64,000 nucleotides of DNA, from the NCBI GenBank assembly GCA_037441385.1, contig JBBISH010000016.1, forward strand, positions 8,700 to 72,699. The letters are read 5' to 3'. Source of the stretch: Myxococcales bacterium (GTDB lineage: Bacteria; Myxococcota_A; UBA9042). Shown here piece after piece: positions 21,307 to 52,584 of the stretch; within the stretch, counting starts at the first letter, position 1; each line of letters opens with the position of its first letter. The translations under genes were made by a program, and so were the position numbers. A model generated the notes under the pieces. It was not told where the DNA came from. It made no database searches and saw nothing but the letters and a program-made list of their open reading frames with translations.

Positions 21307-22242
21307 CTACAGCGGTGGGCAGAACTTGTCGTCGCAGCCGGGGCCCGTCTTGGTGCTCTCGTCTTTGGCACACACGGCGCAGTAGTAGCCACAGGGCAGC
21401 ACATCGTAGTTGCCGGGCGCGCACGGTGGCTGGAATTCCTTGGGCAACGCCATCGTCGAGCACTGCCGCCACTGATCGGCCGGATCCACATTGGGATTGC
21501 CCGGCACCGACAAGAGGCAGCCCCAGCACACGTCCAAGGGGTACTCCATAGTGCCCGAGACCACGTTGTTGCCGCCGGCGGTCTTGCCCTGCAGCTGGAA
21601 CTTCAGCACCACTCGCTCGATGGTGCGGGCGCGGTCGGTGAACTGAGAGAACCGTTGCTGCCACTCGGCGCCCACCGGCTTGCCCGGCGCCGCAAAATCG
21701 GGCACCAGATTCATCCCGATCAAGGCTTTGCTGTTGGCCGGGATGAAGGCCTGCACGGGCAGGTCCCACTGGGCCAGGTTCTGACCGGTGATGGTCTTGT
21801 TGACCTTGACCGTGCTGCTCGGCAGCGAGAACGGCGACGTGGCCTTGGTCGACGGCGAACGCACCATAGTCACGTTCACGTTGGTGATGTTGACCGAGTT
21901 AGGATCCAGACGCAGCGAACTGGGCCCCGAGCCGTTGATCAGCTGCAGCGACGGCAGGTTGTTCTTGACCGACCCGACGAACTTGAACTCGCGCGACAGC
22001 GCCACATCCATCACGCCGTCCAGATAGAAGTTCTGACCGCCGGTGTACGAGCACTGCAAGATGCCGTTGACCACCGTGGCTTGCGGCACCACGTTGCCTT
22101 CGACCGCCAACGCCGTGTTGTTGTAGGAGTCGCAGCCGGCTGCCAACGCGGCCAGTCCCAGGCCCGCGACACCGATGCAGACACGGCGCACCGGCAGCTG
22201 GCGGGTCGCTCCACTAAGCAATCCGTCGAAATTAATCTGCAT
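21307..22242 (-). CDS. Lipoprotein with Cys-rich C-terminus, last gene of the pil-aroKB run
   Basis: GAGGAGG RBS, LAAGC lipobox, start overlaps the aroKB stop; C-terminal VCWGCL...CAPG...CGYYCAVC...C...C. Confidence 0.75.
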   Translation of the reverse strand: MQINFDGLLSGATRQLPVRRVCIGVAGLGLAALAAGCDSYNNTALAVEGNVVPQATVVNGILQCSYTGGQNFYLDGVMDVALSREFKFVGSVKNNLPSLQLINGSGPSSLRLDPNSVNITNVNVTMVRSPSTKATSPFSLPSSTVKVNKTITGQNLAQWDLPVQAFIPANSKALIGMNLVPDFAAPGKPVGAEWQQRFSQFTDRARTIERVVLKFQLQGKTAGGNNVVSGTMEYPLDVCWGCLLSVPGNPNVDPADQWRQCSTMALPKEFQPPCAPGNYDVLPCGYYCAVCAKDESTKTGPGCDDKFCPPL

Positions 22243-23932
22243 TCTTGCCTCCTCGCTGCTGTGCAAAACCGCCCGGCAGCGGCGACGACGCGGCCGGCAG
22301 GGAAGTTCGCACATGGGTCGGCGCCGTCGCGCCCAGTTCGGCCAAGCGGGTTTGCCAGAGGCCGGCGTCGACCGCCAGCAACTCAGCATGCCCGACGCCG
22401 CGGAGCAGTGGCAACCACAGCTGGTGCCCGCGGCGTTTCTTGTCAGTAGCGGTCCGCGCCAGCGTAGTGGCGGTCGCCCATCGTTCCCATTGGGTTTCCA
22501 AACCCAACGCTTCCAGTCCCAGCCGCACCGCTTGCGCTGTGCCGACTTCGGCCAGGCCCAAGCTCTCGGCACACTCGGCCTCGCCCACCAATCCCAGCGC
22601 CACGGCCTCGCCGTGCAGCACCGCGAACTTGCTCTCGGCTTCGATGGCGTGGCCCAGCGTGTGGCCCAGGTTGAGCAGCGCCCGCGCCGATGCGTGGCCG
22701 GGGCCCTGCCGCTCTTCTGGATCCGCGGCCACCACCGCGGCTTTGTGGCGAATCGCCGCCCGCAGGTGCGGGGTCAGCGCGGCCAGCGAGCGCCGCCGCA
22801 ACGCCGGGGCGTCGGCCAGCAACGCCTGCCAAGCCTGGGTATCAAAGGTAAGGAAAATCTTGGCGATTTCTGCCAGACCGGCCCGGAACTGCCGCGCCGG
22901 AAGGGTCTGCAGGGCCTGCAGCGGCAGCCACACCCACTCGGGGCTGTGGAACGCGCCGACTAGGTTCTTGCCTTCTGGTGTGTCGATCGCGGTCTTGGCG
23001 CCCACCGACGCATCGGCCATCGCCAGCACCGTCGTGGGCAGCAAGGCCGTGCGCATGCCGCGCTGCCAGGTCGCCGCACAAAAGCCGGCCACATCCGTCG
23101 TCGCGCCGCCGCCGATCGCCACCAGCAGATCGCTGCGACCCACGCCGGCGGTGGCTAGCGCCGACCAGATCCGGCTGGCGGTGCGCAGGTCCTTGCACTT
23201 CTCGCCCCCGGCCACTTCGATCACCGCGGTGGCGAGTCCGCGCGCTTGCAGCATCTCGACCAGCGGTTGCGCCCACTTGGCCACGCCCCGATCGATCACC
23301 AGCGCCACCTTGCCGCCCGCCGCCAGCGCCACAATGGCTTCCGCAGCTTGGGCCGGTGCGCCGCCGTGCAGCCACACCGGGTGGGTCTGGGCGGCCACGG
23401 TCGCGTCCAGCACGGGCTCGGCCGGCTCCAGCGCACCCAGCACCGCCGTCACCACCGCGCTCAGCGGTTGCGCCGCGTCGACATGCGCGTGGGCCTTGGC
23501 ATAGATCGGCCGGCGCCGCAGCTCTAGCTCCACGAGCGCTGTGCGTGCGCTTTGCCGCGTGTCGCCCAGCAGCGGCCGGTCGGTGTCGTCGTGCAGGGCG
23601 CGCTCGCTCAGCACGTCGACCGGCGCGTCGAGCCACACCACTTGGGCCTTGTCGCGCATGCGCTCGATGCCATTATGGAAACACGGCGCACCGCCGCCAG
23701 CGGCGATCACGGCGGGCGGACCTGCCAGCACTTGCTCCAGTAGCGCCGCCTCGTGGATGCGAAACACCGTCTCGCCCTCGCGACGTAGCATTTCGGCAGC
23801 CGTGCGGCCACTTTCGCGCTGAAGCACGGCGTCCAGATCCAGGCACGGCATGGCCAGCCGCTCGGCCACACGGGCGGCGACGGCGGTCTTGCCAGCTGCG
23901 GGCATGCCTATGATCACGACGCTTTGCCTCAC
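22232..23932 (-). CDS. aroKB: Bifunctional shikimate kinase / 3-dehydroquinate synthase
   Basis: N-terminal GMPAAGKT P-loop, GETVFR, RPLL; C-terminal GEKCKD, GGGATTDVAGF, PTTVLAMADASVGAKT, LNLGHTLGHAIE, LHGEAVALG. Confidence 0.93.
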   Translation of the reverse strand: MRQSVVIIGMPAAGKTAVAARVAERLAMPCLDLDAVLQRESGRTAAEMLRREGETVFRIHEAALLEQVLAGPPAVIAAGGGAPCFHNGIERMRDKAQVVWLDAPVDVLSERALHDDTDRPLLGDTRQSARTALVELELRRRPIYAKAHAHVDAAQPLSAVVTAVLGALEPAEPVLDATVAAQTHPVWLHGGAPAQAAEAIVALAAGGKVALVIDRGVAKWAQPLVEMLQARGLATAVIEVAGGEKCKDLRTASRIWSALATAGVGRSDLLVAIGGGATTDVAGFCAATWQRGMRTALLPTTVLAMADASVGAKTAIDTPEGKNLVGAFHSPEWVWLPLQALQTLPARQFRAGLAEIAKIFLTFDTQAWQALLADAPALRRRSLAALTPHLRAAIRHKAAVVAADPEERQGPGHASARALLNLGHTLGHAIEAESKFAVLHGEAVALGLVGEAECAESLGLAEVGTAQAVRLGLEALGLETQWERWATATTLARTATDKKRRGHQLWLPLLRGVGHAELLAVDAGLWQTRLAELGATAPTHVRTSLPAASSPLPGGFAQQRGGKNAD

Positions 23933-23953
23933 GCTGATGCCTTGCCTATCCGC

Positions 23954-26900
23954 CTACTTGCCCACCGTCAAAGACGACGAGCGGTTGACGATGCGGGGGG
24001 TGATGAAGATGAGCAGTTCCGTGCGCTTGTCTTCTTCGCGGCGGGTGCGGAACATCGCGCCGATCAGCGGAATGTCGCCAAAGAACGGCACCTTCTTGGT
24101 CGAGAGCGAGGTGTTGCGGGTATAAATGCCGCCGATCACCGTCGTCTCGCCGTCGCCCAGCAAAAGCTCCGTATTGGCTTCGCGTTGCGTGATGGTCGGG
24201 TTGCCGTCTGCCGCGCGGTTGCTGAAGTCCGGCTCGTTCTTGGTCACGTTCACGGCCAGCTTGACGTTGCCGTCCTGGGTGATATGCGGCGTGGCCGAGA
24301 GCTTCAGGTCGGCGCTGAAGAAGCGCGTCTGCACGCCCTGGGCCGACACGACCGAGATCGGGATCGAGATGCCTTGCTTGATGGTGGCCTGGTAGTTGTC
24401 CAGCGTCAGCACCTTGGGACTCGAGACGATCTTGACCACACCTTCTTGCTCGGCCGCGCTCAAGCGCAGGTTCAAGTTGCCCGCGCCGCCCAGCGAACCC
24501 AAGGTCAGACCGATCGCACCACCGGCGCCGGTACCCACGGCGGCCGGCAGGTTCACGGCGTAGTTCGGAATCGCCGTCGCAACGCCGTCTTTGTTGGGCG
24601 CCTGGCTGTCCGCGCCGCCGCCCACGCCCACCACGCTGGGGAAGGGCAGGCCGGTCTCGTTGCCGTAGACCGAGCTCATGGCGTAGTTGCCGCCCCACTG
24701 GATACCGACTTCCTTGCTGAACGCCGAGCTGGCCTCGACCACTCGCGCTTCGATCAGCACTTGCGGCGTCTGCCCGTCCAGCTTGCGCACCAGCTCTTCT
24801 ACGGCTGCCACGTGGTCTTCGGTGTCGGTGACCACCAGCGAGTTGGTGCGGGCGTCCATCGTCACCGAGCCCTTCTTGCTCTTGATGGCGTTGGCCTGCG
24901 GCACGAGCTGTTCGGCCTGGGCGTAGTTGACCGGAATGATGCGGACGACCAGCTGCTTGACCTCTTCCAGCTTCTGCCGGCGCTCGACTTCGGCGTCGAA
25001 CTCCTTCTTCAGCGAGTCGATGGTCGCGACGCGGATCACGCCGGCCTGGCGCACGTAGTCGTAGCCGCGGGCGCGCAGGATCACGTCCAGCGCCAGGTCC
25101 CACGGGATGTTCTCCAGGTGGAACGTGACTTTGCCTTGGACTTCCGGCCCGGCGATGATGTTCAGCTTGCCTTCCTTGGCCAGGAACGTCAGCACGTGCT
25201 GGATGTCTGCGTCCTTGATGGTCAAGTTGATGCGCTTGCCGGTGTAGCGGCGGTTCTTGCGCCACGGCGTCTTGATGTCGCCGCCCCCTTCGCCGCCACC
25301 GCTGGGGCCGCCGGCATCTTCGGGCGCCATCACAGGTTGCGGGGCCGCGGCCAACACATCGCCGCCCGACTTCACGGCGCGCGACACGCCCTTGGGGCCG
25401 TCGGCCACTTCTTGGCGCTCGGCGCCTTCCACGCGGTCAAAGTCCCACATCAGCTGGCCGTCACGCAGCGTCACGCGGTCGGCGGCGCGATCGCTCAGAT
25501 CGACCACGACGCGCACTTCGTCCTGCACACCCTCGGGCCGGAACACGGTGACGCGCTCGAGCGGACCTTGCAGCGCCTTGGTGTCGTAGGCGCGCTGCAG
25601 GTGCTCGGGCAGGCGCACGCCGCGCACGGCCAAGACGACGCGGTTGGGCTGGCGGCTGACCACTTCGGCGCGCGCCATCTCGGCGCCGCCACCCAGGGCT
25701 AGCTCGACGTGGCCGCGGCGCCGACCTTCGGCCGTGATGCGCACGTCGTCGATGCGGCCCATGTCGTCGCTCTTGGCGGCGCGCTCGTTGCGGGCCTTCT
25801 GCCGCTCTTGCTCGGCTTCGCGGCGCAGCACCTGGGCCTGGGCGGCGGCCTGCTCGGCGGCAGCCTCGGCATTGCGGCGCTGCTCGGCACCCTGGGCCTC
25901 GCGGCGGGCGCGCTGCAACTCGTCGGCCAGGCGCTGCTTCTCGGCGCGCTCGGCCGCCAAACGCTGCTCCTGCTCGGCGATGCGGCGCTCGGCGTCGGCG
26001 GTCTGGCGCGACTCGGCCTCGCGCTCTTGCCGCTCGCGCTCGGCGCGCGCTTCCAGAACGGCGATGCGGGCCTGCTGGCGCTGCACGTAGTCGCCACCGC
26101 CCTTGCTGCCCGCCGCCGCTTCGGCCTGCTTGCGCCGGTTCTGCTCGGCGGCCAACTGCGACTGCAGGTCCTGCTCGCGCTGGACGTACTTCTCTTCCAG
26201 GGCTTTTTCGCGGGCCTCGTGCTCGGCCTGCAGCTGGGCGCGCACGGTGGCCAGCTCTTTCTCTACGCGCTCTTGGGTGCGCTTTTGCTGCTCGGCAGCG
26301 GCCTTTTCGGCCATGGCCACCTTGGCGCGCACGTCGTCGACCGCGCGTTCGGCCGCCACGATGCGAGCGCGCGACGAGGCGCGATCGCTGCGCATGGCTT
26401 CGAGCTCGCCTTCGCGGGCACGCAGGTTGCGCGACAGATCACCCATCTTCTCTTCGGCTTGCCGGCGAGCGGCCTGCTCGCGTTCGGCTTCGCGCCGCGC
26501 CGCCGCCACCGCCTGGTCGCGGTCGTGCAGCGCCTTCTTGGCCATCTCGGTGTCCTTGCTCAGGCGCTGCGTCTCGCGCTGCGCGGCCTGCGCCTCCTGG
26601 TGCCGACCGGCCGCCGCCGCCGCCTGCTCGCGCCGCTTGGACTCGCCCAGGGCGCGGTTCAGGGCGTCGATGCGCTCTTGGGTCTTGGCCTGCAGGTTGC
26701 GCAGCTCGGCCTCGCGCTGGTCCAGCAGACCCTGTACGGCCTCGGCCTGCTTGCTGGCGGCCGCAGCCTGCTGGCTTGCGGCCACGGCCTTGCGCGACTC
26801 TTGGGCCCGCGCCGCTTCCTTTTCGCGAAGTTGCGCCTCGTACGAGTTGCTGAGCGCCTGCTCGCGACGGGCCAGTTCGGCCTTCAACTCCATGCGCACC

Positions 26901-29900
26901 TGGGCCACACGATCTTCGGCATCGCGCTCCATCTTGCGGACTTCGGCGTCGCGGGCGGCCATCGACGCGTCGATCTGCTTGCGCAGCGCGGCCACCTGAG
27001 CCTCGGCCTGAGCGACCGACTTGCCTTGATCCTGGCCACCCACGCGCAACCGCTGCAGCTCCGCCTCGCGCTCGGCCAGGGCCGTCTGCAGGCGCTGTGC
27101 CTCTTGCTCTGCCGCCGCGCGGGCTTCGGCTTGCCGCTTGGACTCGCCGACTGCATTTTGCAGCGCCGTCTCGCGGGCCTTCAGATCCGTTTGCAGGGAT
27201 CCCAGCGCCGTCTCTAGGCTCTTGCGCTCTTCCTTCGCCTTGTCCGCCTCGGCCGCGCGGCCCTTGGCCTGGGCGTCCTTTTCGCGCTGGCTGGCTTCGT
27301 CCAGCTGGGCTTCCAGAGCCGCCTGGCGGACTTGCATCTCGTCGTGCAGCCGTTGCAGCTCTTGCTCGCGGTCCTTCAGCAAGCCTTCGACGCGGGAGGC
27401 GCGCTCTTGCGCCTGGCGCGCCTGCTCGCCGCGCTCGCTCTGGACGCGGGCCAACTCGCGGGCGTGGGCCTGCTCCAGCTCTTGCCGCATCGCGCCCAGC
27501 CGGCTGTCGAACTGCTCGGCCATGGCCCTTTCGCGGCGGGCCTGATCGGCAAGCTGACTCTGCAGGCGCTGGCGGGCCTCGGCCACGGCGCGCTGGGCGC
27601 TGGCCATTTCGTCCGCTTTGGCGGACTTGCGGGACTTCAGGCTGCCCAGCTCGCGCTCGCGGTCGGCCAGGGCCTTTTGCAGGCGATCCGCCTCTTGCTC
27701 GGCTTTGTCACGGGCTTCGGCCTGCAGCTTCGCCTCGCGGCGCGCGGCGGCCACCGCGTCGGTCTGGCTCTGCAGATCCTTGCGCAACTGGGCCTGTGCG
27801 GCTTCCAGCCGCTGGCGCTCTTGGCGGGCGCTCTCTTGATCGGCGCGTCGACCCTCGCGCAGCGCCTTGTCTTCGGCCGCCTTGACCTCGCGCATCTGGG
27901 CCGCAAGTTTGTCCTCGCGCTCGCGGACCGACGCCTTCAGGGCGGCCACTTCTCGCTCACGCGCGGCCAACTGCTGTTCCACGCCCTGGGCGCGCTGAGC
28001 CGCAGCCGAGCGCTCGCGTTCCAGATCCGCCACCGCCGCCTTGGCGCGCTGCAGCTCGGCCTGCGACGAGGCCAGCTCGGCGCGGACACCCTGCAACTGC
28101 CCCTGCAGCTTGGCCTGCAGCTCGGCCACCTGGCGATCCTGGTCGGCTTGCTGGGCCGCAAGTTGCTGGCGCGCCTTCTGCACCTCGGCTTGGGCCGCGG
28201 CGATCTGATGGTTCGAAGCAGCTTTGCCCTTGGCCAACTCGGCCAGCGCTGCTTCGCGCTCGGCCAGACTGTTGCGCAGCTTTTGGGCCTCGGCCTCGGC
28301 CTGCTGACGCGCCTTGCCGTTGCGCTCCGCCTCGCCGCGGGCCGTCGCCAACTCGCGATCGCGACTGGCCAGCTCTTTGGCCAGCTCGGCCTGCTTGGCC
28401 TCGATGTCGCCGCGCGCCTTTTGCGCCGCCGCCAGCTCACTCTGCTTGCCGGCCCGCTTGGCTTCATCTTCGCGGGCCTTGGCCTGACTCAGCTCGGCCT
28501 TCAGGTTTGCCTCGCGGTCCTTCAGGGCGGTGCGCAGGTTCTGCAACTCGCGCTCGCGCTGATCCAGCAGGTCTTGCACTTGCGCTGCCCGCTGGGCTGC
28601 CGCGGCGTTCTCGCGCTGCAATTCGGCCTTCTCGGCGCGCAGGTCGGCCAGCTGGGCTTGCGCCGCCGCCAAGTCCTTTTGCACGCCCTGCAGCTGACCC
28701 TGGAGCTTTTGCTGCAGCGCGGCCAATTGCGCATCGCGCTCGGCCTCTTGATCGCGCAGCTTGGCGCGCGCGGCTGCCACTTCCGCTTCGGCCTTGGCGA
28801 TCTGCTGACGGCTCGCAGCGGTGCCCTGACCGAGCGATTGCAGGGCGGCCTCGCGCTCGGCCAGCGCCGACCGGAGCTTCTGATTCTCGACCTCGGCTTG
28901 CTGCCGGGCCTGGGTGGTCTTTTCGACTTCGCGGCGCGCGGCCTTCAACTCCTCGTCGCGGCGGCTCAATTCGCGGGCCGCTTCGGCCTGACGACGCTCG
29001 ACGTCGGCACGGGCCTGGCGGGCGGCCTCGACTTCGGCTTGCTTGCCGGCTCGCTCGGCCGCCTGCTCGCGCTGGCGGGCTTGCGCCAGTTCGGCCTGCA
29101 GACCCGACTCCTTGTTCTGCAGCGTTGTCCGCAGGTTCTGCAGCTCGCGCTCGCGCTGGGCCAGCAGGTCTTGGACTTGCTCGGCGCGGGCGGCGGCGGC
29201 GGCCTTCTGCCGCTCCAGATCGGCGTTTTGCTTCTTCAGGCCTGCGACTTCGGCTTGGGCCGAGGCCAGATCGCGCTGCACTTCGTCCAGCTGACCCTGC
29301 AATTTTTGCTGCATGGCCTGCAGTTGCCGGTCGCGCTCGGCGGCCTGCGCCACCAACTGCGCTCGGGCCGCGGCAACCTGGGCCTGCGCCTGCTGGATCT
29401 GCTGGGCGCTCGCGTCCTTGCCCTTGGCCAGGGACTGCAGCGCAGCCTCGCGGTCGGCCAGCACGTTGCGCAGGCGCTCGGCTTCCTGCTCGGCTTGCTT
29501 GCGGGCCTGGGTATTGCGCTCCACGTCTTGACGGGCAGCCGCCAGATCCGCGTCGCGCTTGACCAATTCCTTGCTCAGTTCGGCTTGGCGGGCGCGAATG
29601 GTCTCTTGGGCTTGCTGCGCAGCCGCGACTTCCGCCGCCTTGCCGCCTTGCTTGGCCTGCGCTTCGCGGGCCTTGGCCTCGGCCAATTCCGCGGCCAGCG
29701 ACGACTCGCGATCCTTCAGGGCCAGGCGCAGGTTTTGCAGCTCGCGCTCGCGCTGCCCCAGCAGATCCTGGACGCGACCGGCGCGCTCGGCCGCGGCAGC
29801 CTTCTCGCGCTCAAGGTCGGCCACCTTGGCCTGGCTGGCCGCCAGCTTGCGCTCACTCTCGGCCGCCCGCTCTTCGGCCAGGCGCCACTTGCGCTCGGCC

Positions 29901-31078
29901 TGCTCGCGCTCGTAGTCGGCGCGCTTGGCCTTTTCCAGGGCGTTCTCGGTGTCCATCAAGCGGCTGCGCGCCGCGGCGAGTTCGCCGGCCAGTTGCTCCT
30001 GCTTGCGCTTGGCCTCGGCGTCCGAACCCGCGCGCGCGGCCTGCAGATCGCGGTCTTTTTCGGCCAAGATCTTCTTGAGGTGCTCGACTTCTTCGGCTTG
30101 GGCTTGCCGGCGCGACTCGCTGGCCCGGCGCATCTCGTCGCGGAGCTGCTCGGCCTGTTGCTTGGCCCTTTCCAGCTCGGCTTGCAGCACCGCCAAACGC
30201 TCGTCGCGGGCCGCGCCTTCTTGCTTTTGCAGCGCGGCGATCTGCTGGCGCAGCAGTTCCACGCGCGCTTCCTCGGATTGCCGTTGCGCGACCACAGCTT
30301 GCAGCGAGGCGCGCTCTTTGTTCAGCTCGGCGCGCAAGGCGTCAGCGGCCTTCTGCTCGCTCGCCAGCCGGGCGGCGGCAGCTTGGGCGGCCTGCTCGGC
30401 GTCGGCTAGGCGCTTCTTGAGCGCCTCTTGGGCCTGCAGGTCGGTCTTGGCGCGCGCCAGTTCGTCGGCCAGGCGGTTGCGCTCGTCTTGCGCTTGCTTA
30501 CTGGCCAGCGCGGCTTGCTCTTCGCGGGCGCGGGTGGCGCGCAGTTCGTCGGCCAGCTGCTTTTCGCGCGCGGCGGCGGTCTTGACGGCCTGCTCGTTGG
30601 CCGCCACCTGGGCGCTCTGGGCCTGGTTCAGCTTGCGGTCGCTGCCGTCGACCACGACCACGACGGTATTGCCGTCGGCGCGGACGTGGTACAGGGCATC
30701 TTGTTCAAAGGTCACGACAATTCGACCCACCGGCGCGCCCGACTTCTTGGTCGACTGCACCTCGATGGACCGCACCACGCCGTTGCCCACGTACTTGGGT
30801 GCTTCCAGCCCTTGCACGTCGCTGCCCGCCACGTCGATGAACAGGCGCGAGGGCTTGTCCAGGCGGAAAGTCGTAAACGTAGGCGCCGCCAGACCGCGCA
30901 CCGTGATGACGGTGGTCTGGGTCGCTTCTTGCACGTCGACGGCGGTCAGGGTGTTGCTCGCCTGGCCAGTGCCCTCGGCCGCGAACAAAGGCGTCGCCGG
31001 CAGGGCCATGGTCGTCGACAAGAACAAGCCCATCGACGAGCGCAGCAGCCGCTTGGCCATCGTTTGCTTGGTTCTCAT
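23954..31078 (-). CDS. pilQ: Type IVa pilus secretin PilQ, giant variant (2374 aa) with ~1,600-aa coiled-coil insertion
   Basis: Signal peptide; AMIN-like domain (FRLDKPSRLFIDV); long Ala/Glu/Gln/Arg helical region; second AMIN-like domain; YTGKRINLTIKDADI, IPWDLALDVIL, PQVLIEARVVEAS, GETTVIGGIY, KVPFFGDIPLIG, ELLIFITPRIV; last pil gene of pilMNOPQ. Confidence 0.95.
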   Translation of the reverse strand: MRTKQTMAKRLLRSSMGLFLSTTMALPATPLFAAEGTGQASNTLTAVDVQEATQTTVITVRGLAAPTFTTFRLDKPSRLFIDVAGSDVQGLEAPKYVGNGVVRSIEVQSTKKSGAPVGRIVVTFEQDALYHVRADGNTVVVVVDGSDRKLNQAQSAQVAANEQAVKTAAAREKQLADELRATRAREEQAALASKQAQDERNRLADELARAKTDLQAQEALKKRLADAEQAAQAAAARLASEQKAADALRAELNKERASLQAVVAQRQSEEARVELLRQQIAALQKQEGAARDERLAVLQAELERAKQQAEQLRDEMRRASESRRQAQAEEVEHLKKILAEKDRDLQAARAGSDAEAKRKQEQLAGELAAARSRLMDTENALEKAKRADYEREQAERKWRLAEERAAESERKLAASQAKVADLEREKAAAAERAGRVQDLLGQRERELQNLRLALKDRESSLAAELAEAKAREAQAKQGGKAAEVAAAQQAQETIRARQAELSKELVKRDADLAAARQDVERNTQARKQAEQEAERLRNVLADREAALQSLAKGKDASAQQIQQAQAQVAAARAQLVAQAAERDRQLQAMQQKLQGQLDEVQRDLASAQAEVAGLKKQNADLERQKAAAAARAEQVQDLLAQRERELQNLRTTLQNKESGLQAELAQARQREQAAERAGKQAEVEAARQARADVERRQAEAARELSRRDEELKAARREVEKTTQARQQAEVENQKLRSALAEREAALQSLGQGTAASRQQIAKAEAEVAAARAKLRDQEAERDAQLAALQQKLQGQLQGVQKDLAAAQAQLADLRAEKAELQRENAAAAQRAAQVQDLLDQRERELQNLRTALKDREANLKAELSQAKAREDEAKRAGKQSELAAAQKARGDIEAKQAELAKELASRDRELATARGEAERNGKARQQAEAEAQKLRNSLAEREAALAELAKGKAASNHQIAAAQAEVQKARQQLAAQQADQDRQVAELQAKLQGQLQGVRAELASSQAELQRAKAAVADLERERSAAAQRAQGVEQQLAAREREVAALKASVREREDKLAAQMREVKAAEDKALREGRRADQESARQERQRLEAAQAQLRKDLQSQTDAVAAARREAKLQAEARDKAEQEADRLQKALADRERELGSLKSRKSAKADEMASAQRAVAEARQRLQSQLADQARRERAMAEQFDSRLGAMRQELEQAHARELARVQSERGEQARQAQERASRVEGLLKDREQELQRLHDEMQVRQAALEAQLDEASQREKDAQAKGRAAEADKAKEERKSLETALGSLQTDLKARETALQNAVGESKRQAEARAAAEQEAQRLQTALAEREAELQRLRVGGQDQGKSVAQAEAQVAALRKQIDASMAARDAEVRKMERDAEDRVAQVRMELKAELARREQALSNSYEAQLREKEAARAQESRKAVAASQQAAAASKQAEAVQGLLDQREAELRNLQAKTQERIDALNRALGESKRREQAAAAAGRHQEAQAAQRETQRLSKDTEMAKKALHDRDQAVAAARREAEREQAARRQAEEKMGDLSRNLRAREGELEAMRSDRASSRARIVAAERAVDDVRAKVAMAEKAAAEQQKRTQERVEKELATVRAQLQAEHEAREKALEEKYVQREQDLQSQLAAEQNRRKQAEAAAGSKGGGDYVQRQQARIAVLEARAERERQEREAESRQTADAERRIAEQEQRLAAERAEKQRLADELQRARREAQGAEQRRNAEAAAEQAAAQAQVLRREAEQERQKARNERAAKSDDMGRIDDVRITAEGRRRGHVELALGGGAEMARAEVVSRQPNRVVLAVRGVRLPEHLQRAYDTKALQGPLERVTVFRPEGVQDEVRVVVDLSDRAADRVTLRDGQLMWDFDRVEGAERQEVADGPKGVSRAVKSGGDVLAAAPQPVMAPEDAGGPSGGGEGGGDIKTPWRKNRRYTGKRINLTIKDADIQHVLTFLAKEGKLNIIAGPEVQGKVTFHLENIPWDLALDVILRARGYDYVRQAGVIRVATIDSLKKEFDAEVERRQKLEEVKQLVVRIIPVNYAQAEQLVPQANAIKSKKGSVTMDARTNSLVVTDTEDHVAAVEELVRKLDGQTPQVLIEARVVEASSAFSKEVGIQWGGNYAMSSVYGNETGLPFPSVVGVGGGADSQAPNKDGVATAIPNYAVNLPAAVGTGAGGAIGLTLGSLGGAGNLNLRLSAAEQEGVVKIVSSPKVLTLDNYQATIKQGISIPISVVSAQGVQTRFFSADLKLSATPHITQDGNVKLAVNVTKNEPDFSNRAADGNPTITQREANTELLLGDGETTVIGGIYTRNTSLSTKKVPFFGDIPLIGAMFRTRREEDKRTELLIFITPRIVNRSSSLTVGK
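26150..29810 (-). repeat. Six tandem ~199-aa (about 597-bp) repeats within the PilQ coiled coil
   Basis: Anchor motif V(Q/E)xLLxxRExELxxL recurs at ~29731, 29134, 28537, 27940, 27349, 26695 (spacings 597, 597, 597, 591, 654 bp); ends approximate. Confidence 0.9.
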
Positions 31079-31138: not shown

Positions 31139-31810
31139 TCAGGGTACGTCGCCAACATCTTCGTCGCCGGGTTCGCCCACCGAGATGGGCGGAGCCAGCG
31201 ACAACGTCACCGGTTTCTCTTTGCCGGGCACAGACAGAATCACCTTGTACTGGGTGATCGCCGTCACGCGCGCCCCGTCGTTGCCCAATGCGTCGCCGCG
31301 CACCACGTCGCAGCGCCCGCCATCGGGATCCGTAAACACGGCCTTGGGTTGCGCCACGCCGGTCATGATCATGAACAGGACATAGCGCTCGATTGGGCCT
31401 TTGGTCGCACAGGTGTCAGGCAGGTCCGCGGGCCGCTCGTCCATGCCCACGGGCTGGTCCACCACGGCTTGCTCGGGCACCTTGGGCCACTCGACGACCT
31501 TGGTCGTGTTGTCCAGCGACCAATTCACCACGCCGTCGATGGGCTCTTTGGTATACCGGTCGAACAAACCCTTGATGGGCCGCCACTTGGGATTCTCGCC
31601 CAACACTTGATACGCGCCCGAGGCGGCGCTGCTGCTCGAGTTGCTGGACTCCGTGCCGGCCAAGCGGTTCAGGGCCTGGTTCATGTCCTTGGGTGGCGGC
31701 TTCTTGGCCTCGCCGCCGCCGCCACATGCCACCAGCGCCAGCGATGCCAACGCCAGCAGCGCGCGCGCCGCTGGCTTGCCCAGCATGTTCAGGACAGCTG
31801 ACTGCAGCAT
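31139..31810 (-). CDS. pilP: Type IV pilus assembly lipoprotein PilP
   Basis: LALVAC lipobox; PIERYVL.MIMTG...PKAVFTDPDG...VVRGDALG..GARVTAI; position between pilO and pilQ; TGATG coupling to pilO. Confidence 0.8.
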   Translation of the reverse strand: MLQSAVLNMLGKPAARALLALASLALVACGGGGEAKKPPPKDMNQALNRLAGTESSNSSSSAASGAYQVLGENPKWRPIKGLFDRYTKEPIDGVVNWSLDNTTKVVEWPKVPEQAVVDQPVGMDERPADLPDTCATKGPIERYVLFMIMTGVAQPKAVFTDPDGGRCDVVRGDALGNDGARVTAITQYKVILSVPGKEKPVTLSLAPPISVGEPGDEDVGDVP

Positions 31811-32556
31811 CAGGTCCTCTTCTTCTTCGGCTTTTCGCGCCGAGCCATGCCTTCTTTGAGCTCGGCCGGCTTGCCGGTCCACACAAAGGCGTAGGCGGTA
31901 AAGGTCGCCCGGATGGTCGTGCGGTCGCGCGCCATGTCGGCCATCTCGAACTTCTCGTACAAAATGGCCTCGGGGCTCTTGTTCGTTTCTTGCTTTTTGT
32001 CGCCTTCCACGGGCTTGTGCGCCGAGTCGTAGGCCGCGCGCACCAGACCGGATTCTGGCACCACTGTTTCGACGCTGATGCCCCGGATGTTGATCAGGCG
32101 TCGGCTCATGCCCGCGTACAACCGCAAAAATTCGATGAACTGCTGGACGGTGCCTTCCAACGTCACCTTGATCGGGATGGCGTTGTAGAGGTCTTCGCTC
32201 TCTTCCTGCAGGCGGTCGAAGCGCTTGATGGTCAAGTGGATGTCGGTGGCGTCGGCCTGGACCCCGTCGATGAACTTGGGGATCTCGTCGGCCGAGGGGA
32301 AGCCGGCGCGGCGCCGTTTGTCCTCTTCGACCAGATCGTCCTTCTCTTTGCGCAGCTTGTCCGCCGCCTCGCTACTGGCCGAGGACTTCAGCGCATTGAC
32401 GTCGCGCTCCAGCTTGGTCAACTGCGCGCGCGCTTGATCGGCTTTGCCCAACTCGGGATCGACCAGGCCAAAGTACAGGCCCAGCGCGACGACCACCAGG
32501 ATGCCTGCCAACACCGCGGCCTTTTGGGCGGGCGGCAACTTCATGAACTGTTCCAT
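31810..32556 (-). CDS. pilO: Type IV pilus assembly protein PilO
   Basis: N-terminal TM, coiled coil, PSADEIPKFIDGV, YNAIPIKVTLEGT, RLINI; GGAGGAGG RBS. Confidence 0.88.
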   Translation of the reverse strand: MEQFMKLPPAQKAAVLAGILVVVALGLYFGLVDPELGKADQARAQLTKLERDVNALKSSASSEAADKLRKEKDDLVEEDKRRRAGFPSADEIPKFIDGVQADATDIHLTIKRFDRLQEESEDLYNAIPIKVTLEGTVQQFIEFLRLYAGMSRRLINIRGISVETVVPESGLVRAAYDSAHKPVEGDKKQETNKSPEAILYEKFEMADMARDRTTIRATFTAYAFVWTGKPAELKEGMARREKPKKKRT

Positions 32557-32574: not shown

Positions 32575-33645
32575 TTATTCCGCTGCCGGCATCTTGTCGG
32601 CCGGTGCAGCTGCGGGTGGTGGTTCGGCGGCTTGATGGGCAGCCGGCATGGCCGCTTTGCCGTCGTCGCGCGGCAACTCGTCGGCCTTGGCTTTGCCGGC
32701 CTCGGCCTTGGCGGGCTCGGCTTTGGGCGCTTCGGCCTTGGCGTCCGGCGCAGTCGCCGTGTCGGGCTCGCTGTCTTTGGCCTCGGCCGGCGTGTCCGGC
32801 GCCGACCCGGCATCGATGTCGTCGGCTGCCGTCGCCGCTGCGGGCAGGGGCAGTGCCACCTTGGTGCCGATGACGGCCGCGTCGTCGCCGGTGCTGCCTG
32901 CGTCGGCGGCGCCGCCATCCGTAGAGCCAGCGTCCGCGCCATTGCCCGCAGCAGCGCCTTCTTCGGGTTTGGCCGGATTCAGCGGTTCGATCAGATAGAC
33001 CAGCGAAGCCCGGATCGAGAATTCGACATAGGTGATGCCGATCTGGTCGTCGCGCTTCTTTTCTTGGTAAATCAGCTTGGGTTCGCGGAAGTACGGGCTC
33101 GACTCCAAGCGCCACTGCAGCTCGGCCACGTCTTCGTGCCCCAGCGCGCGGCCCTGGATGGTCACCTCGCCGCCCGACTCGCGGTACGTCGTGACCCACG
33201 CGCGGCGCGCGTCCCAGCCCACGTGCCAACCCGCGGCCTCAAAGGCCACCAGATCGGCCGTGGGCGTCTCGTGTTGCTGGCGCGGCTGCAGGATGAACGA
33301 CAGGTATTGCAGGGCGCCCGCCGGCCCGTCCTTTTCGGCAAACAGCTCGTCGAGCACGGCCTTCTGATCGCGGAGTTTCTTGATCTCTTCGGTGGCCAGC
33401 GCGATCGCCTTCTTGTTCTCTTCCAGCTTGACGAGCTCCAGCTTGCGCCGCTCGAGCTGGGACTTGGCGCGCGTCGCCTCTTCCGCGGCGGTGTTTTGCC
33501 ACAGATAGAAAACGGCCAGTTCCATGACCAAGAACAGCACGAACAGCAAGATGCCGACGTTGGGGATATCGGGCAGGCGCAAGCCCGCGCCGCCCTTGCG
33601 ACTTTTCTTACCGGCGCCGCCACCGATCAGGTTGATGCGAATCAT
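32575..33645 (-). CDS. pilN: Type IV pilus assembly protein PilN with low-complexity C-terminal tail
   Basis: MIRINL motif, TM, coiled coil, VTIQGRA...VAEL...LESSPYF. Confidence 0.9.
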   Translation of the reverse strand: MIRINLIGGGAGKKSRKGGAGLRLPDIPNVGILLFVLFLVMELAVFYLWQNTAAEEATRAKSQLERRKLELVKLEENKKAIALATEEIKKLRDQKAVLDELFAEKDGPAGALQYLSFILQPRQQHETPTADLVAFEAAGWHVGWDARRAWVTTYRESGGEVTIQGRALGHEDVAELQWRLESSPYFREPKLIYQEKKRDDQIGITYVEFSIRASLVYLIEPLNPAKPEEGAAAGNGADAGSTDGGAADAGSTGDDAAVIGTKVALPLPAAATAADDIDAGSAPDTPAEAKDSEPDTATAPDAKAEAPKAEPAKAEAGKAKADELPRDDGKAAMPAAHQAAEPPPAAAPADKMPAAE

Positions 33646-52511: not shown

Positions 52512-52584
52512 GGGCCTATAGCTCAATGGTCAGAGCTGCCGGCTCATAACCGGCTGGTTCCTGGTTCGAATCCAGGTGGGCCCA
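52512..52584 (+). tRNA. tRNA with CAT anticodon, probably tRNA-Ile2 (lysidine-type); CCA not encoded
   Basis: Acceptor stem GGGCCTA/TGGGCCC+A, D-arm GCTC..GAGC, anticodon arm GCCGG-CTCATAA-CCGGC, T-arm CCTGG-TTCGAAT-CCAGG. Confidence 0.92.

What the first reader, a model, noticed from the sequence alone, without database searches (positions are those of the whole stretch)
23954..31078. Giant PilQ secretin with a ~1,600-aa coiled-coil insertion between its AMIN-like domains
Seen: one uninterrupted 2374-aa ORF at the pilQ position of an intact pilMNOPQ operon. Order is signal peptide, AMIN-like domain (~30960-30640), about 1,620 aa of Ala/Glu/Gln/Arg/Lys-rich, Pro-free helical sequence (~30640-25765), a second AMIN-like domain, then N domains and secretin core. 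Known: PilQ is usually about 700-900 aa, multimerises in the outer membrane, and its AMIN domains bind peptidoglycan. Inference: fully extended at ~0.15 nm per residue the insert would be ~240 nm, far more than a normal periplasm. It could form lateral spokes that space or anchor pilus machines, a polar periplasmic scaffold, a spacer for an unusually wide envelope, or a folded cage. I know of no described secretin with this architecture.
Basis: partly seen in the sequence, partly recalled or inferred. Interest (0 to 1): 0.93.

Follow-up and report, generated by a model that had tools for sequence, protein, structure and literature searches.

The report
Giant pilus secretin with folded arms
The outer-membrane pore protein of this bacterium's type IV pilus carries a real, conserved 1,630-residue helical insert, mostly six repeats predicted to fold back on themselves, so each pore probably has long side arms anchored in the cell wall, a design widespread in uncultured myxobacteria that appears unstudied.

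Summary
Observation confirmed. One 2,374-aa PilQ (TIGR02515 above cut-off) in pilMNOPQ carries a proline-free 1,630-aa helical insert between two AMIN domains. It is no misassembly: all 26 of 35 fetched relatives that show both AMINs have a 371-2,031-aa insert, dN/dS is 0.07-0.36, and a contig from another study spans the junction. AlphaFold2 (pLDDT 87, pTM 0.58) breaks each repeat into 120- and 72-residue helices that align to antiparallel three-helix bundles. That gives about 7 nm per repeat and an arm of roughly 40-100 nm; 240 nm is only the unzipped limit. The secretin core, PilO and PilP are normal in length, so a wide-envelope spacer is unlikely. Best reading (0.45): 12-15 lateral, wall-anchored, possibly extensible arms that brace or space the machine; function is inferred. 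Shorter inserts occur in other Myxococcota classes. This scan noted the architecture before on other DNA (three notes); the fold-back repeat is what this report adds. Nine literature searches found no description; Neisseria's short repeats at the same site are the nearest precedent.

The parts
23954..31078 (-). pilQ, 2,374 aa, about 257 kDa mature
30980..31078 (-). probable Sec signal peptide (residues 1-33, judged by eye)
30638..30949 (-). AMIN1 (residues ~44-147), predicted peptidoglycan-binding domain at the far end of the insert
   Evidence: Pfam PF11741; own AMIN profile, E 6e-25
29933..30637 (-). N-cap of the insert (148-382): conserved helices with variable loops near 212, 289 and 351
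   Evidence: alignment of 14 family members
26303..29932 (-). six ~199-aa helical repeats (383-581, 582-780, 781-979, 980-1178, 1179-1375, 1403-1592), each with a Gly turn at unit position 97 and a second turn at 171-175
25748..26302 (-). C-cap of the insert (1593-1777): helix, Gly-rich turn, a strongly conserved short motif at ~1662-1680 that fits the R-h-x-x-h-E pattern (recalled as a coiled-coil trimerisation motif), then a last helix
25424..25747 (-). AMIN2 (1778-1885), next to the N0 domain as in ordinary PilQ
   Evidence: the Kofleriaceae counterpart aligns to AmiC and PilQ AMIN folds
23957..25243 (-). N0, second N domain and secretin core (1946-2374), normal length
   Evidence: (M. xanthus PilQ 3jc8, E 3.7e-135)
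31139..31810 (-). pilP, lipoprotein, normal size
   Evidence: position and lipobox; weak match to 3jc8 PilP, E 0.015; no Pfam or NCBIfam hit
31810..32556 (-). pilO, normal size
   Evidence: PF04350
32575..33645 (-). pilN (probable start at 33645), with an extra Pro/Ala-rich C-terminal tail of about 130 aa
   Evidence: PF05137
33654..34757 (-). pilM
   Evidence: PF11104, TIGR01175
22232..23932 (-). aroK-aroB fusion downstream of pilQ (context only)
   Evidence: homologue downstream in most relatives

Best explanation
An ordinary type IVa pilus secretin whose linker between the two wall-binding AMIN domains has become a long, self-folding helical arm. Shown: gene, domains, repeats, conservation and lineage-specific change of repeat number. 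Predicted: each repeat is a 120-residue helix out and a 72-residue helix back, packed as an antiparallel three-helix bundle, advancing about 48 residues (7 nm). Six repeats give about 43 nm, and the whole insert roughly 40-100 nm depending on how the caps fold. Inferred: AMIN2 holds the pore to peptidoglycan beside the machine as in known PilQ. The 12-15 arms (about 2.2-2.7 MDa of helix per pore) cannot stand upright between wall and outer membrane, so they lie sideways and fix AMIN1 to peptidoglycan tens of nanometres away. They would act as guy-ropes that spread pilus-retraction load over a wide patch of wall and keep neighbouring machines apart, with hairpin unzipping as reserve length (up to about 245 nm while still helical).
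For: Real and selected: (repeat dN/dS 0.07 against G005, 0.29-0.36 against three more distant genomes). Fold-back: Gly97 in 99% of 131 units. AF2 helices 2-96, 99-170, 176-295, 298-369, 375-397, pLDDT 87. Model residues ~38-234 align to antiparallel three-helix bundles (APPL1 BAR Z 11.2, rmsd 5.5, 192 aligned; designed bundle 4tql Z 10.7, rmsd 9.3, 215 aligned). A Kofleriaceae insert also folds into long antiparallel hairpins. Length is tunable at the distal end: the three units nearest AMIN2 match the same position in other genera (25, 25 and 22 of 26), while 25 of 31 middle units are closest to a unit of their own protein. Both AMINs are conserved (AMIN1 dN/dS 0.03-0.26). The vertical parts are of normal size. 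AMIN-peptidoglycan binding, 12-15 subunits and bracing by TsaP come from PMC10653833 and PMC11525922 (passages).
Against: No experiment, and no RNA or protein evidence. I could not see model coordinates: the bundle topology is read from helix breaks and alignment ranges, pTM is only 0.58, and Z of 10-12 is what any helical bundle gets. Covariation supported only the short hairpin, and weakly. A charge-complementarity test of the long hairpin was not significant (rank 52 of 397; 208 of 1,000 shuffles as high). A monomer prediction cannot exclude inter-chain coiled coils. If every turn reverses direction, the Kofleriaceae insert brings AMIN1 back near AMIN2 (net about 60 residues, pTM 0.31), so a distant anchor need not be general. 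M. xanthus works with one AMIN and flexible linkers (PMC10653833), the genome also encodes TsaP, and two members of genus g5 have only a 371-374-aa insert.
Confidence: 0.45

Rival explanations
1. Scaffold or mesh: the arms bind each other (between subunits or between neighbouring machines) or a partner protein, forming a periplasmic lattice or an outer-membrane-to-wall tether. AMIN1 may fold back to sit near AMIN2, with the rod projecting as a strut.
For: Cap motifs are much more conserved than a passive rope needs: 26 of 26 family sequences keep Q77, R79, A81, L83, E84 and R86 of the C-cap motif, and short-insert G014 keeps a variant. Kofleriaceae helices nearly cancel in direction. The layout barrel - helical stalk - wall-binding domain is that of SlpA/OmpM tethers (PMC9388160 passages).
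Against: The repeat folds with high confidence as a single chain. Repeat number varies from 4 to 7 within the family, which fits a fixed lattice poorly. The trimer reading of the motif is recalled, and matching hexapeptides occur at scattered places in many inserts.
Confidence: 0.25
2. Targeting reach: the arm lets newly exported PilQ monomers capture septal or polar peptidoglycan from a distance, or sense pole geometry, and so sets where machines assemble rather than bearing load.
For: AMIN domains are needed for septal and polar recruitment in M. xanthus and P. aeruginosa (PMC10653833 passages). The repeat model resembles BAR-type bundles.
Against: One AMIN is enough for localisation in M. 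xanthus (same paper). The BAR likeness is at generic Z, with 10-16% identity and no Pfam hit. 181 kDa per subunit is a high price for targeting alone.
Confidence: 0.12
3. Vertical spacer for an unusually wide envelope.
For: Coiled-coil length varies between species in SlpA/OmpM tethers (PMC9388160). PilN's periplasmic part is longer in this family (rho 0.59 with insert length, n 54).
Against: The insert is N-terminal to AMIN2 and N0, so it is not in series with the membrane-spanning parts. The core is 420-450 aa in 90 of 91 proteins (one is cut by a contig end). PilO (rho 0.21, n 54) and PilP (rho -0.11, n 47) do not scale. In this genome PilN's extra length is a Pro/Ala-rich tail after the core.
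Confidence: 0.07
4. The insert handles DNA or another polyanion in the periplasm, a scaled-up version of Neisseria's small basic repeats.
For: Neisseria repeats lie at the same site, and replacing that region lowers DNA binding (PMC2884949, PMC3441751 passages). Some inserts are strongly basic (+250 to +267 in G015 and G017).
Against: This insert is nearly neutral (+19 over 1,631 residues), and several class members are neutral or acidic.
Confidence: 0.04
5. Tolerated linker bloat with no function beyond staying helical and soluble.
For: Length varies from 22 to 2,031 aa across the phylum, and insert sequences of different families barely align.
Against: Purifying selection, near-invariant positions across 11 genera, three units fixed by position, and the cost of a 257-kDa subunit.
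Confidence: 0.05
6. Assembly artefact joining pilQ to a separate coiled-coil gene.
For: The genome is a 221-contig assembly. No laid contig spans the whole stretch, and the X1 pieces meet at 27054-27081 with under 31 letters of overlap.
Against: The same architecture occurs in 60 other genomes (21 + 22 + 17). Repeats are diverged, not near-identical. A contig of run X3 (another study, about 90% alike) runs unbroken from 22000 to 29932, across core, AMIN2, most of the insert and that meeting point.
Confidence: 0.01

Closest known systems
Myxococcus xanthus PilQ (PDB 3jc8/3jc9, 901 aa; PMC10653833)
   Same: Best solved relative (E 3.7e-135): AMIN - N0 - N - secretin layout, pilMNOPQ order, TsaP in the genome.
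   Different: Three AMINs on flexible linkers; here two AMINs separated by 1,630 helical residues.
Neisseria meningitidis PilQ small basic repeats (PMC3441751, PMC2884949)
   Same: Polymorphic repeats between the two N-terminal beta (AMIN) domains that affect pilus formation; the same site tolerates variable-length inserts.
   Different: Octameric, low-complexity and basic there; here ~199-aa units with a predicted folded bundle, about 1,200 residues in all, near neutral.
SlpA/OmpM outer-membrane-to-peptidoglycan tethers (PMC9388160)
   Same: Outer-membrane barrel, long helical stalk of variable length, N-terminal wall-binding domain.
   Different: SLH domain, parallel homotrimeric stalk of about 28 nm standing across the periplasm, porin barrel; here AMIN, a secretin, a second AMIN at the base and a predicted intramolecular antiparallel fold.
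TolA domain II (PMC8928145); AMIN plus TolA-like helical region in delta-proteobacteria (PMC2572700)
   Same: Charged Ala-rich periplasmic helix proposed to switch between a hairpin ground state and an extended state; AMIN fused to a TolA-like helix was already noted.
   Different: TolA is inner-membrane anchored and energised; the 2008 architecture (viii) is listed apart from PilQ and has no secretin.
EzrA / spectrin-like three-helix repeat rods (PMC4243239, abstract)
   Same: Tandem antiparallel triple-helix bundles forming a rod between two anchors.
   Different: EzrA is cytoplasmic with five repeats in 60 kDa; no Pfam similarity; here units are ~199 aa and predicted to overlap in a stagger.

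Membership tests
Type IVa pilus secretin PilQ | C-terminal secretin domain of the PilQ type | tested here: met
   TIGR02515 414.7 bits against cut-off 284.35; GspD and SctC models below their cut-offs
Type IVa pilus secretin PilQ | Two N domains before the secretin domain | tested here: met
   STN/N0 1954-2017 and Secretin_N 2045-2106
Type IVa pilus secretin PilQ | N-terminal AMIN domain(s) | tested here: met
   PF11741, two stretches, 48.1 bits against 20.5
Type IVa pilus secretin PilQ | Last gene of pilMNOPQ; pilins, PilB/PilT ATPases and TsaP in the genome | tested here: met
   (pilP only weakly); ATPases and pilin-type N-termini by PF00437 and recalled motifs; TsaP-like LysM protein at G000:C5:23235-24362 named by layout. 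PF00114 found no pilin
Type IVa pilus secretin PilQ | Forms a 12-15-mer outer-membrane pore that passes the pilus; AMINs bind peptidoglycan | not testable with these tools
   needs biochemistry or cryo-ET
SlpA/OmpM tether | N-terminal SLH domain and a single-chain porin barrel | tested here: not met
   Pfam finds AMIN and secretin, no SLH
SlpA/OmpM tether | Parallel homotrimeric coiled-coil stalk | not tested
   no complex prediction was obtained; the monomer model is antiparallel
Spectrin/EzrA repeat proteins | Tandem antiparallel three-helix bundles | tested here: inconclusive
   the repeat model aligns to three-helix bundles at generic Z 10-12
Spectrin/EzrA repeat proteins | Sequence match to spectrin or EzrA profiles | tested here: not met
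   no such Pfam hit at E up to 0.01
BAR domains | Curved dimer of three-helix bundles that binds membrane | tested here: inconclusive
   Foldseek best E 0.1, query TM 0.24; VIA Z up to 12.0; no Pfam hit; dimer not tested
TolA | Inner-membrane anchor and C-terminal TolA III domain | tested here: not met
   the insert is flanked by AMIN domains; no TolA hit

The most novel reading that the evidence does not exclude
Many Myxococcota pilus machines carry an undescribed built-in periplasmic structure: 12-15 self-folding helical arms per secretin, several times the mass of the pore, that radiate under the outer membrane, grip the wall at a distance and unzip under load. They would be a spectrin-like shock absorber or lattice whose reach each lineage tunes by adding ~7-nm repeat units at the far end.
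Probability: 0.3. Interest if true: 0.85.

Novelty: new variant of a known kind. Interest (0 to 1): 0.63.

Why it matters
The model type IVa pilus machine comes from M. xanthus, P. aeruginosa and Neisseria, whose secretins are 700-900 aa. In this class the secretin is usually 1,100-2,800 aa, so the model may miss most of the machine's mass in a large uncultured part of the same phylum. How these machines are anchored against retraction force and spaced at the pole is only partly known. A modular arm with a predicted ~7-nm unit and natural variants of 4-7 units gives a direct test: length of arm against spacing, force and localisation. The ~199-aa unit itself matched no known family and could be a useful rod or spring module.

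Tried and rejected
Misassembly: rejected. Straight 240-nm rod: rejected as the resting state. Wide-envelope spacer: disfavoured. Mutual information on 131 units gave only a weak signal for the short hairpin (i+j of 344-355) and little for the long one. Charge complementarity across the long hairpin was not significant (rank 52 of 397; 208 of 1,000 shuffles as high), nor across the short one; the hand-picked opposite-charge pairs are therefore not used as evidence. Fourier analysis of hydrophobic period gave 3.3-3.7 with low power and decided nothing. Tandem Repeats Finder missed the 597-nt unit. Foldseek found no match at E up to 0.001; spectrin and EzrA were not among the 50 VIA rows, which does not exclude them. 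The ESM Atlas gave only hits under 0.9. The repeat profile hit three family PilQs and two short proteins without Pfam hits strongly among 1.84 billion representatives; of the 47 weaker hits 12 were scanned, 10 of them showing generic coiled-coil or unrelated families and 2 none. No second copy of the repeat or of AMIN was found elsewhere in G000 with my profiles. No complex prediction was obtained, so self-association of the arms is untested. No RNA holder was listed. No cultured species name appeared among the 120 + 120 listed homologues, so no cultured carrier was identified. Family f18 gave only GspD-level matches with this query in 4 of 4 genomes searched. The 'Bradymonas + PilQ' search returned 0 papers. 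Supplements of PMC6060248 and PMC13190605 were not read and may list PilQ lengths.
Full report
1. Observation. Window 23954-31078 (-) is one stop-free frame of 2,374 aa. It scores above the PilQ cut-off (TIGR02515 414.7 against 284.35) and below the GspD and SctC cut-offs, with two AMIN stretches, N0, a second N domain and the secretin domain. There is no proline between residues 116 and 1811, and 65-74% of residues 201-1800 are Ala, Glu, Gln, Arg or Lys. pilM, pilN and pilO are above their Pfam cut-offs; pilP rests on position, a lipobox and a weak match to M. xanthus PilP (E 0.015). The genome (6.63 Mb, 221 contigs, 91% complete) also holds PilB/PilT-type ATPases, pilin-type genes and a TsaP-like protein, named by Pfam, recalled motifs and layout.

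2. It is real. I fetched pilQ loci from 35 of the 40 relatives, leaving out four short or cut matches and one genome without a PilQ-type match. 26 of 35 show both AMINs in one frame, and all 26 have a helical insert of 371-2,031 aa. Seven run off a contig, and two have AMIN1 in another frame in a locus with a 100-N gap. Against G005 the repeats have dN/dS 0.07 at dS 0.95; against three more distant genomes 0.29-0.36. Run X1, which may be the source of this DNA, tiles the region with no differences in three pieces. Run X3, from another study, has a contig about 90% alike from 22000 to 29932, across core, AMIN2 and most of the insert.

3. Spread. In the class, 95 of 107 genomes match the core at E up to 1e-90; the stop-to-stop frame is at least 1,000 codons in 72 of 95 and at least 2,000 in 33 of 95, the longest 2,830 (short frames were not all checked for contig ends). 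In an even sample of the phylum 216 of 251 genomes match; of the 104 listed matches outside the class (67 matches were not listed) 38 reach 1,000 codons, 11 reach 1,300 and none 2,000. Among all 75 handle loci fetched, 40 of them picked mostly for length, inserts of at least 250 aa are in 21 of 27 from the family, 22 of 28 from other families of the class and 17 of 20 from other classes; G301 has a 22-aa linker and G117 three AMINs on short linkers. Named relatives are uncultured Myxococcota genomes, with many titles pointing to lakes; Kofleriaceae/Haliangiales records carry 403-1,130-aa inserts and two labelled Polyangia 546-629 aa. A core tree places insert-bearing proteins in every main branch sampled, but the sample is biased to long proteins, so I do not infer a single origin.

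4. Residues 383-1592 are six repeats of about 199 aa (597-nt period), 33-65% identical. A profile of them finds 131 units in 26 proteins of 11 genera of the family, 4-7 per complete protein, none above threshold in the two short-insert members of genus g5, none in 48 loci from outside the family and none in reversed sequences. Gly97 is kept in 99% of units, with conserved Ala and Leu positions mirrored around it, and a second, variable turn lies at 170-176. The three units nearest AMIN2 match the same position in other genera (25, 25 and 22 of 26), whereas 25 of 31 middle units are closest to a unit of their own protein: the base is fixed and the far end expands lineage by lineage. Against 1.84 billion representatives the profile hits strongly only family PilQs and two short proteins without Pfam hits.

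5. Predicted fold. AlphaFold2 on two repeats (residues 781-1178, 81 sequences) gives pLDDT 87.3, pTM 0.58 and helices 2-96, 99-170, 176-295, 298-369 and 375-397, breaking at the two turns. Model residues about 38-234 align to antiparallel three-helix bundles (APPL1 BAR Z 11.2, rmsd 5.5, 192 aligned; designed bundle 4tql Z 10.7, rmsd 9.3, 215 aligned), and longer stretches to Atg17 (Z 11.3, rmsd 7.6, 277 aligned). These Z values are generic, so they show topology, not kinship; Foldseek finds nothing at E up to 0.001. A chain going 120 residues out and 72 back advances 48 residues, 7.2 nm at 0.15 nm per residue, or 43 nm for six repeats, against 245 nm for the whole insert as one straight helix. 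The caps (235 and 185 residues) have variable loops that look like more turns, so I estimate 40-100 nm in all; this is inference. A Kofleriaceae insert (L104, 93 sequences) also breaks into long helices at tight turns (pTM 0.31), and its residues 386-692 align to long two-helix hairpins (chemoreceptor 2ch7 Z 13.2, rmsd 6.5, 305 aligned). Against this reading: covariation was weak, the charge test was not significant, I saw no coordinates, and inter-chain packing is untested.

6. How it most likely works. The insert sits N-terminal to AMIN2, outside the axis that joins the membranes. The core is 420-450 aa in 90 of 91 proteins, and PilO (rho 0.21, n 54) and PilP (rho -0.11, n 47) do not scale with insert length; PilN does (rho 0.59, n 54), in this genome through a Pro/Ala tail after its core. 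Secretins have 12-15 subunits, and AMINs bind peptidoglycan and recruit PilQ to septum and pole (PMC10653833, passages); in P. aeruginosa they are fitted next to N0, and TsaP is proposed to brace the machine against retraction (PMC11525922, passages). With 181 kDa of insert per 46-kDa core, the arms must lie sideways. Best reading (0.45): wall-anchored lateral arms that spread load and space machines, with unzipping as reserve. Rivals: self-associating scaffold (0.25), targeting reach (0.12), vertical spacer (0.07), bloat (0.05), DNA handling (0.04), artefact (0.01). Gene, repeats, conservation and copy-number pattern are shown; the fold is predicted; geometry and function are inferred.

7. 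Known comparisons. It is a PilQ by every sequence test I could run; the best solved relative is M. xanthus PilQ, 901 aa. Neisseria PilQ has polymorphic small basic repeats between the same two domains that influence pilus formation (PMC3441751 and PMC2884949, passages). It is laid out like SlpA/OmpM tethers (PMC9388160, passages) but fails their SLH and porin tests. The hairpin-to-extended idea has a parallel in TolA II (PMC8928145, passages), and AMIN fused to a TolA-like helix was noted in delta-proteobacteria, apart from PilQ (PMC2572700, passages). EzrA is a bacterial rod of three-helix repeats (PMC4243239, abstract).

8. Novelty. Nine full-text searches turned up no description of a PilQ with a long helical insert; most hits were seen only as listings. 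Two comparative papers on myxobacterial pilus genes have no occurrence of 'coiled' in the main text (PMC6060248, PMC13190605; passages); their supplements were not read, PMC3960869 (passages) added nothing, and the library lacks most subscription papers. Databases label such proteins simply PilQ. This scan reported the architecture before in other genomes (e1-3522310, e1-4519470, e1-8047721), describing straight or stiff rods, one of about 200 nm; those notes are leads, not support. The ~199-aa module, its predicted fold-back and the fixed-base, growing-tip pattern do not appear in the lines shown of them. Verdict: new variant of a known kind, interest 0.63.

Noticed in passing
window 32575-33645 (-), pilN: PilN has a Pro/Ala-rich C-terminal tail of about 130 aa; its periplasmic part is 257-339 aa across this family against 164-227 aa elsewhere.
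   Followed up: partly
window 26039-26095 (-); G014 (L049): A short motif after the Gly-rich turn of the C-cap is nearly invariant in the family and survives in short-insert G014, which lacks the helix after it; a candidate oligomerisation or partner site.
   Followed up: partly
L037 (G017), L045 (G015), L062 (G039): Some inserts are strongly basic (net +166 to +267) while most are near neutral.
   Followed up: no
G086, G087, G089, G093 (family f18) and G031: No PilQ-type secretin was found with this query, only GspD-level matches, although the genomes are 90-97% complete.
   Followed up: partly
L088, L092, L093, L095, L098: Record titles say Enterobacteriaceae or Klebsiella, but their PilQ cores are 77-81% identical to this one; the titles are probably wrong.
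   Followed up: no
G000:C115:1-3564 (+): A second long helical protein (over 800 helical residues, acidic, cut by the contig start), unrelated to the PilQ repeat.
   Followed up: no
G000:C133:3936-6476 (-): Predicted lipoprotein with a 240-residue TolA-like charged helical stretch between globular parts.
   Followed up: no
G000:C29:11156-11869 (+) and C171:5249-8074 (+): A LysM protein that looks like a contractile-tail component and a tape-measure-like protein (named from recall of such layouts).
   Followed up: no
L180 (G041), L163 (G202): pilQ has an in-frame stop inside the core in G041 and a frame break after AMIN1 in G202; assembly error or pseudogene not resolved.
   Followed up: no
window 52512-52584 (+): One tRNA, the only Rfam match in the window.
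   Followed up: no
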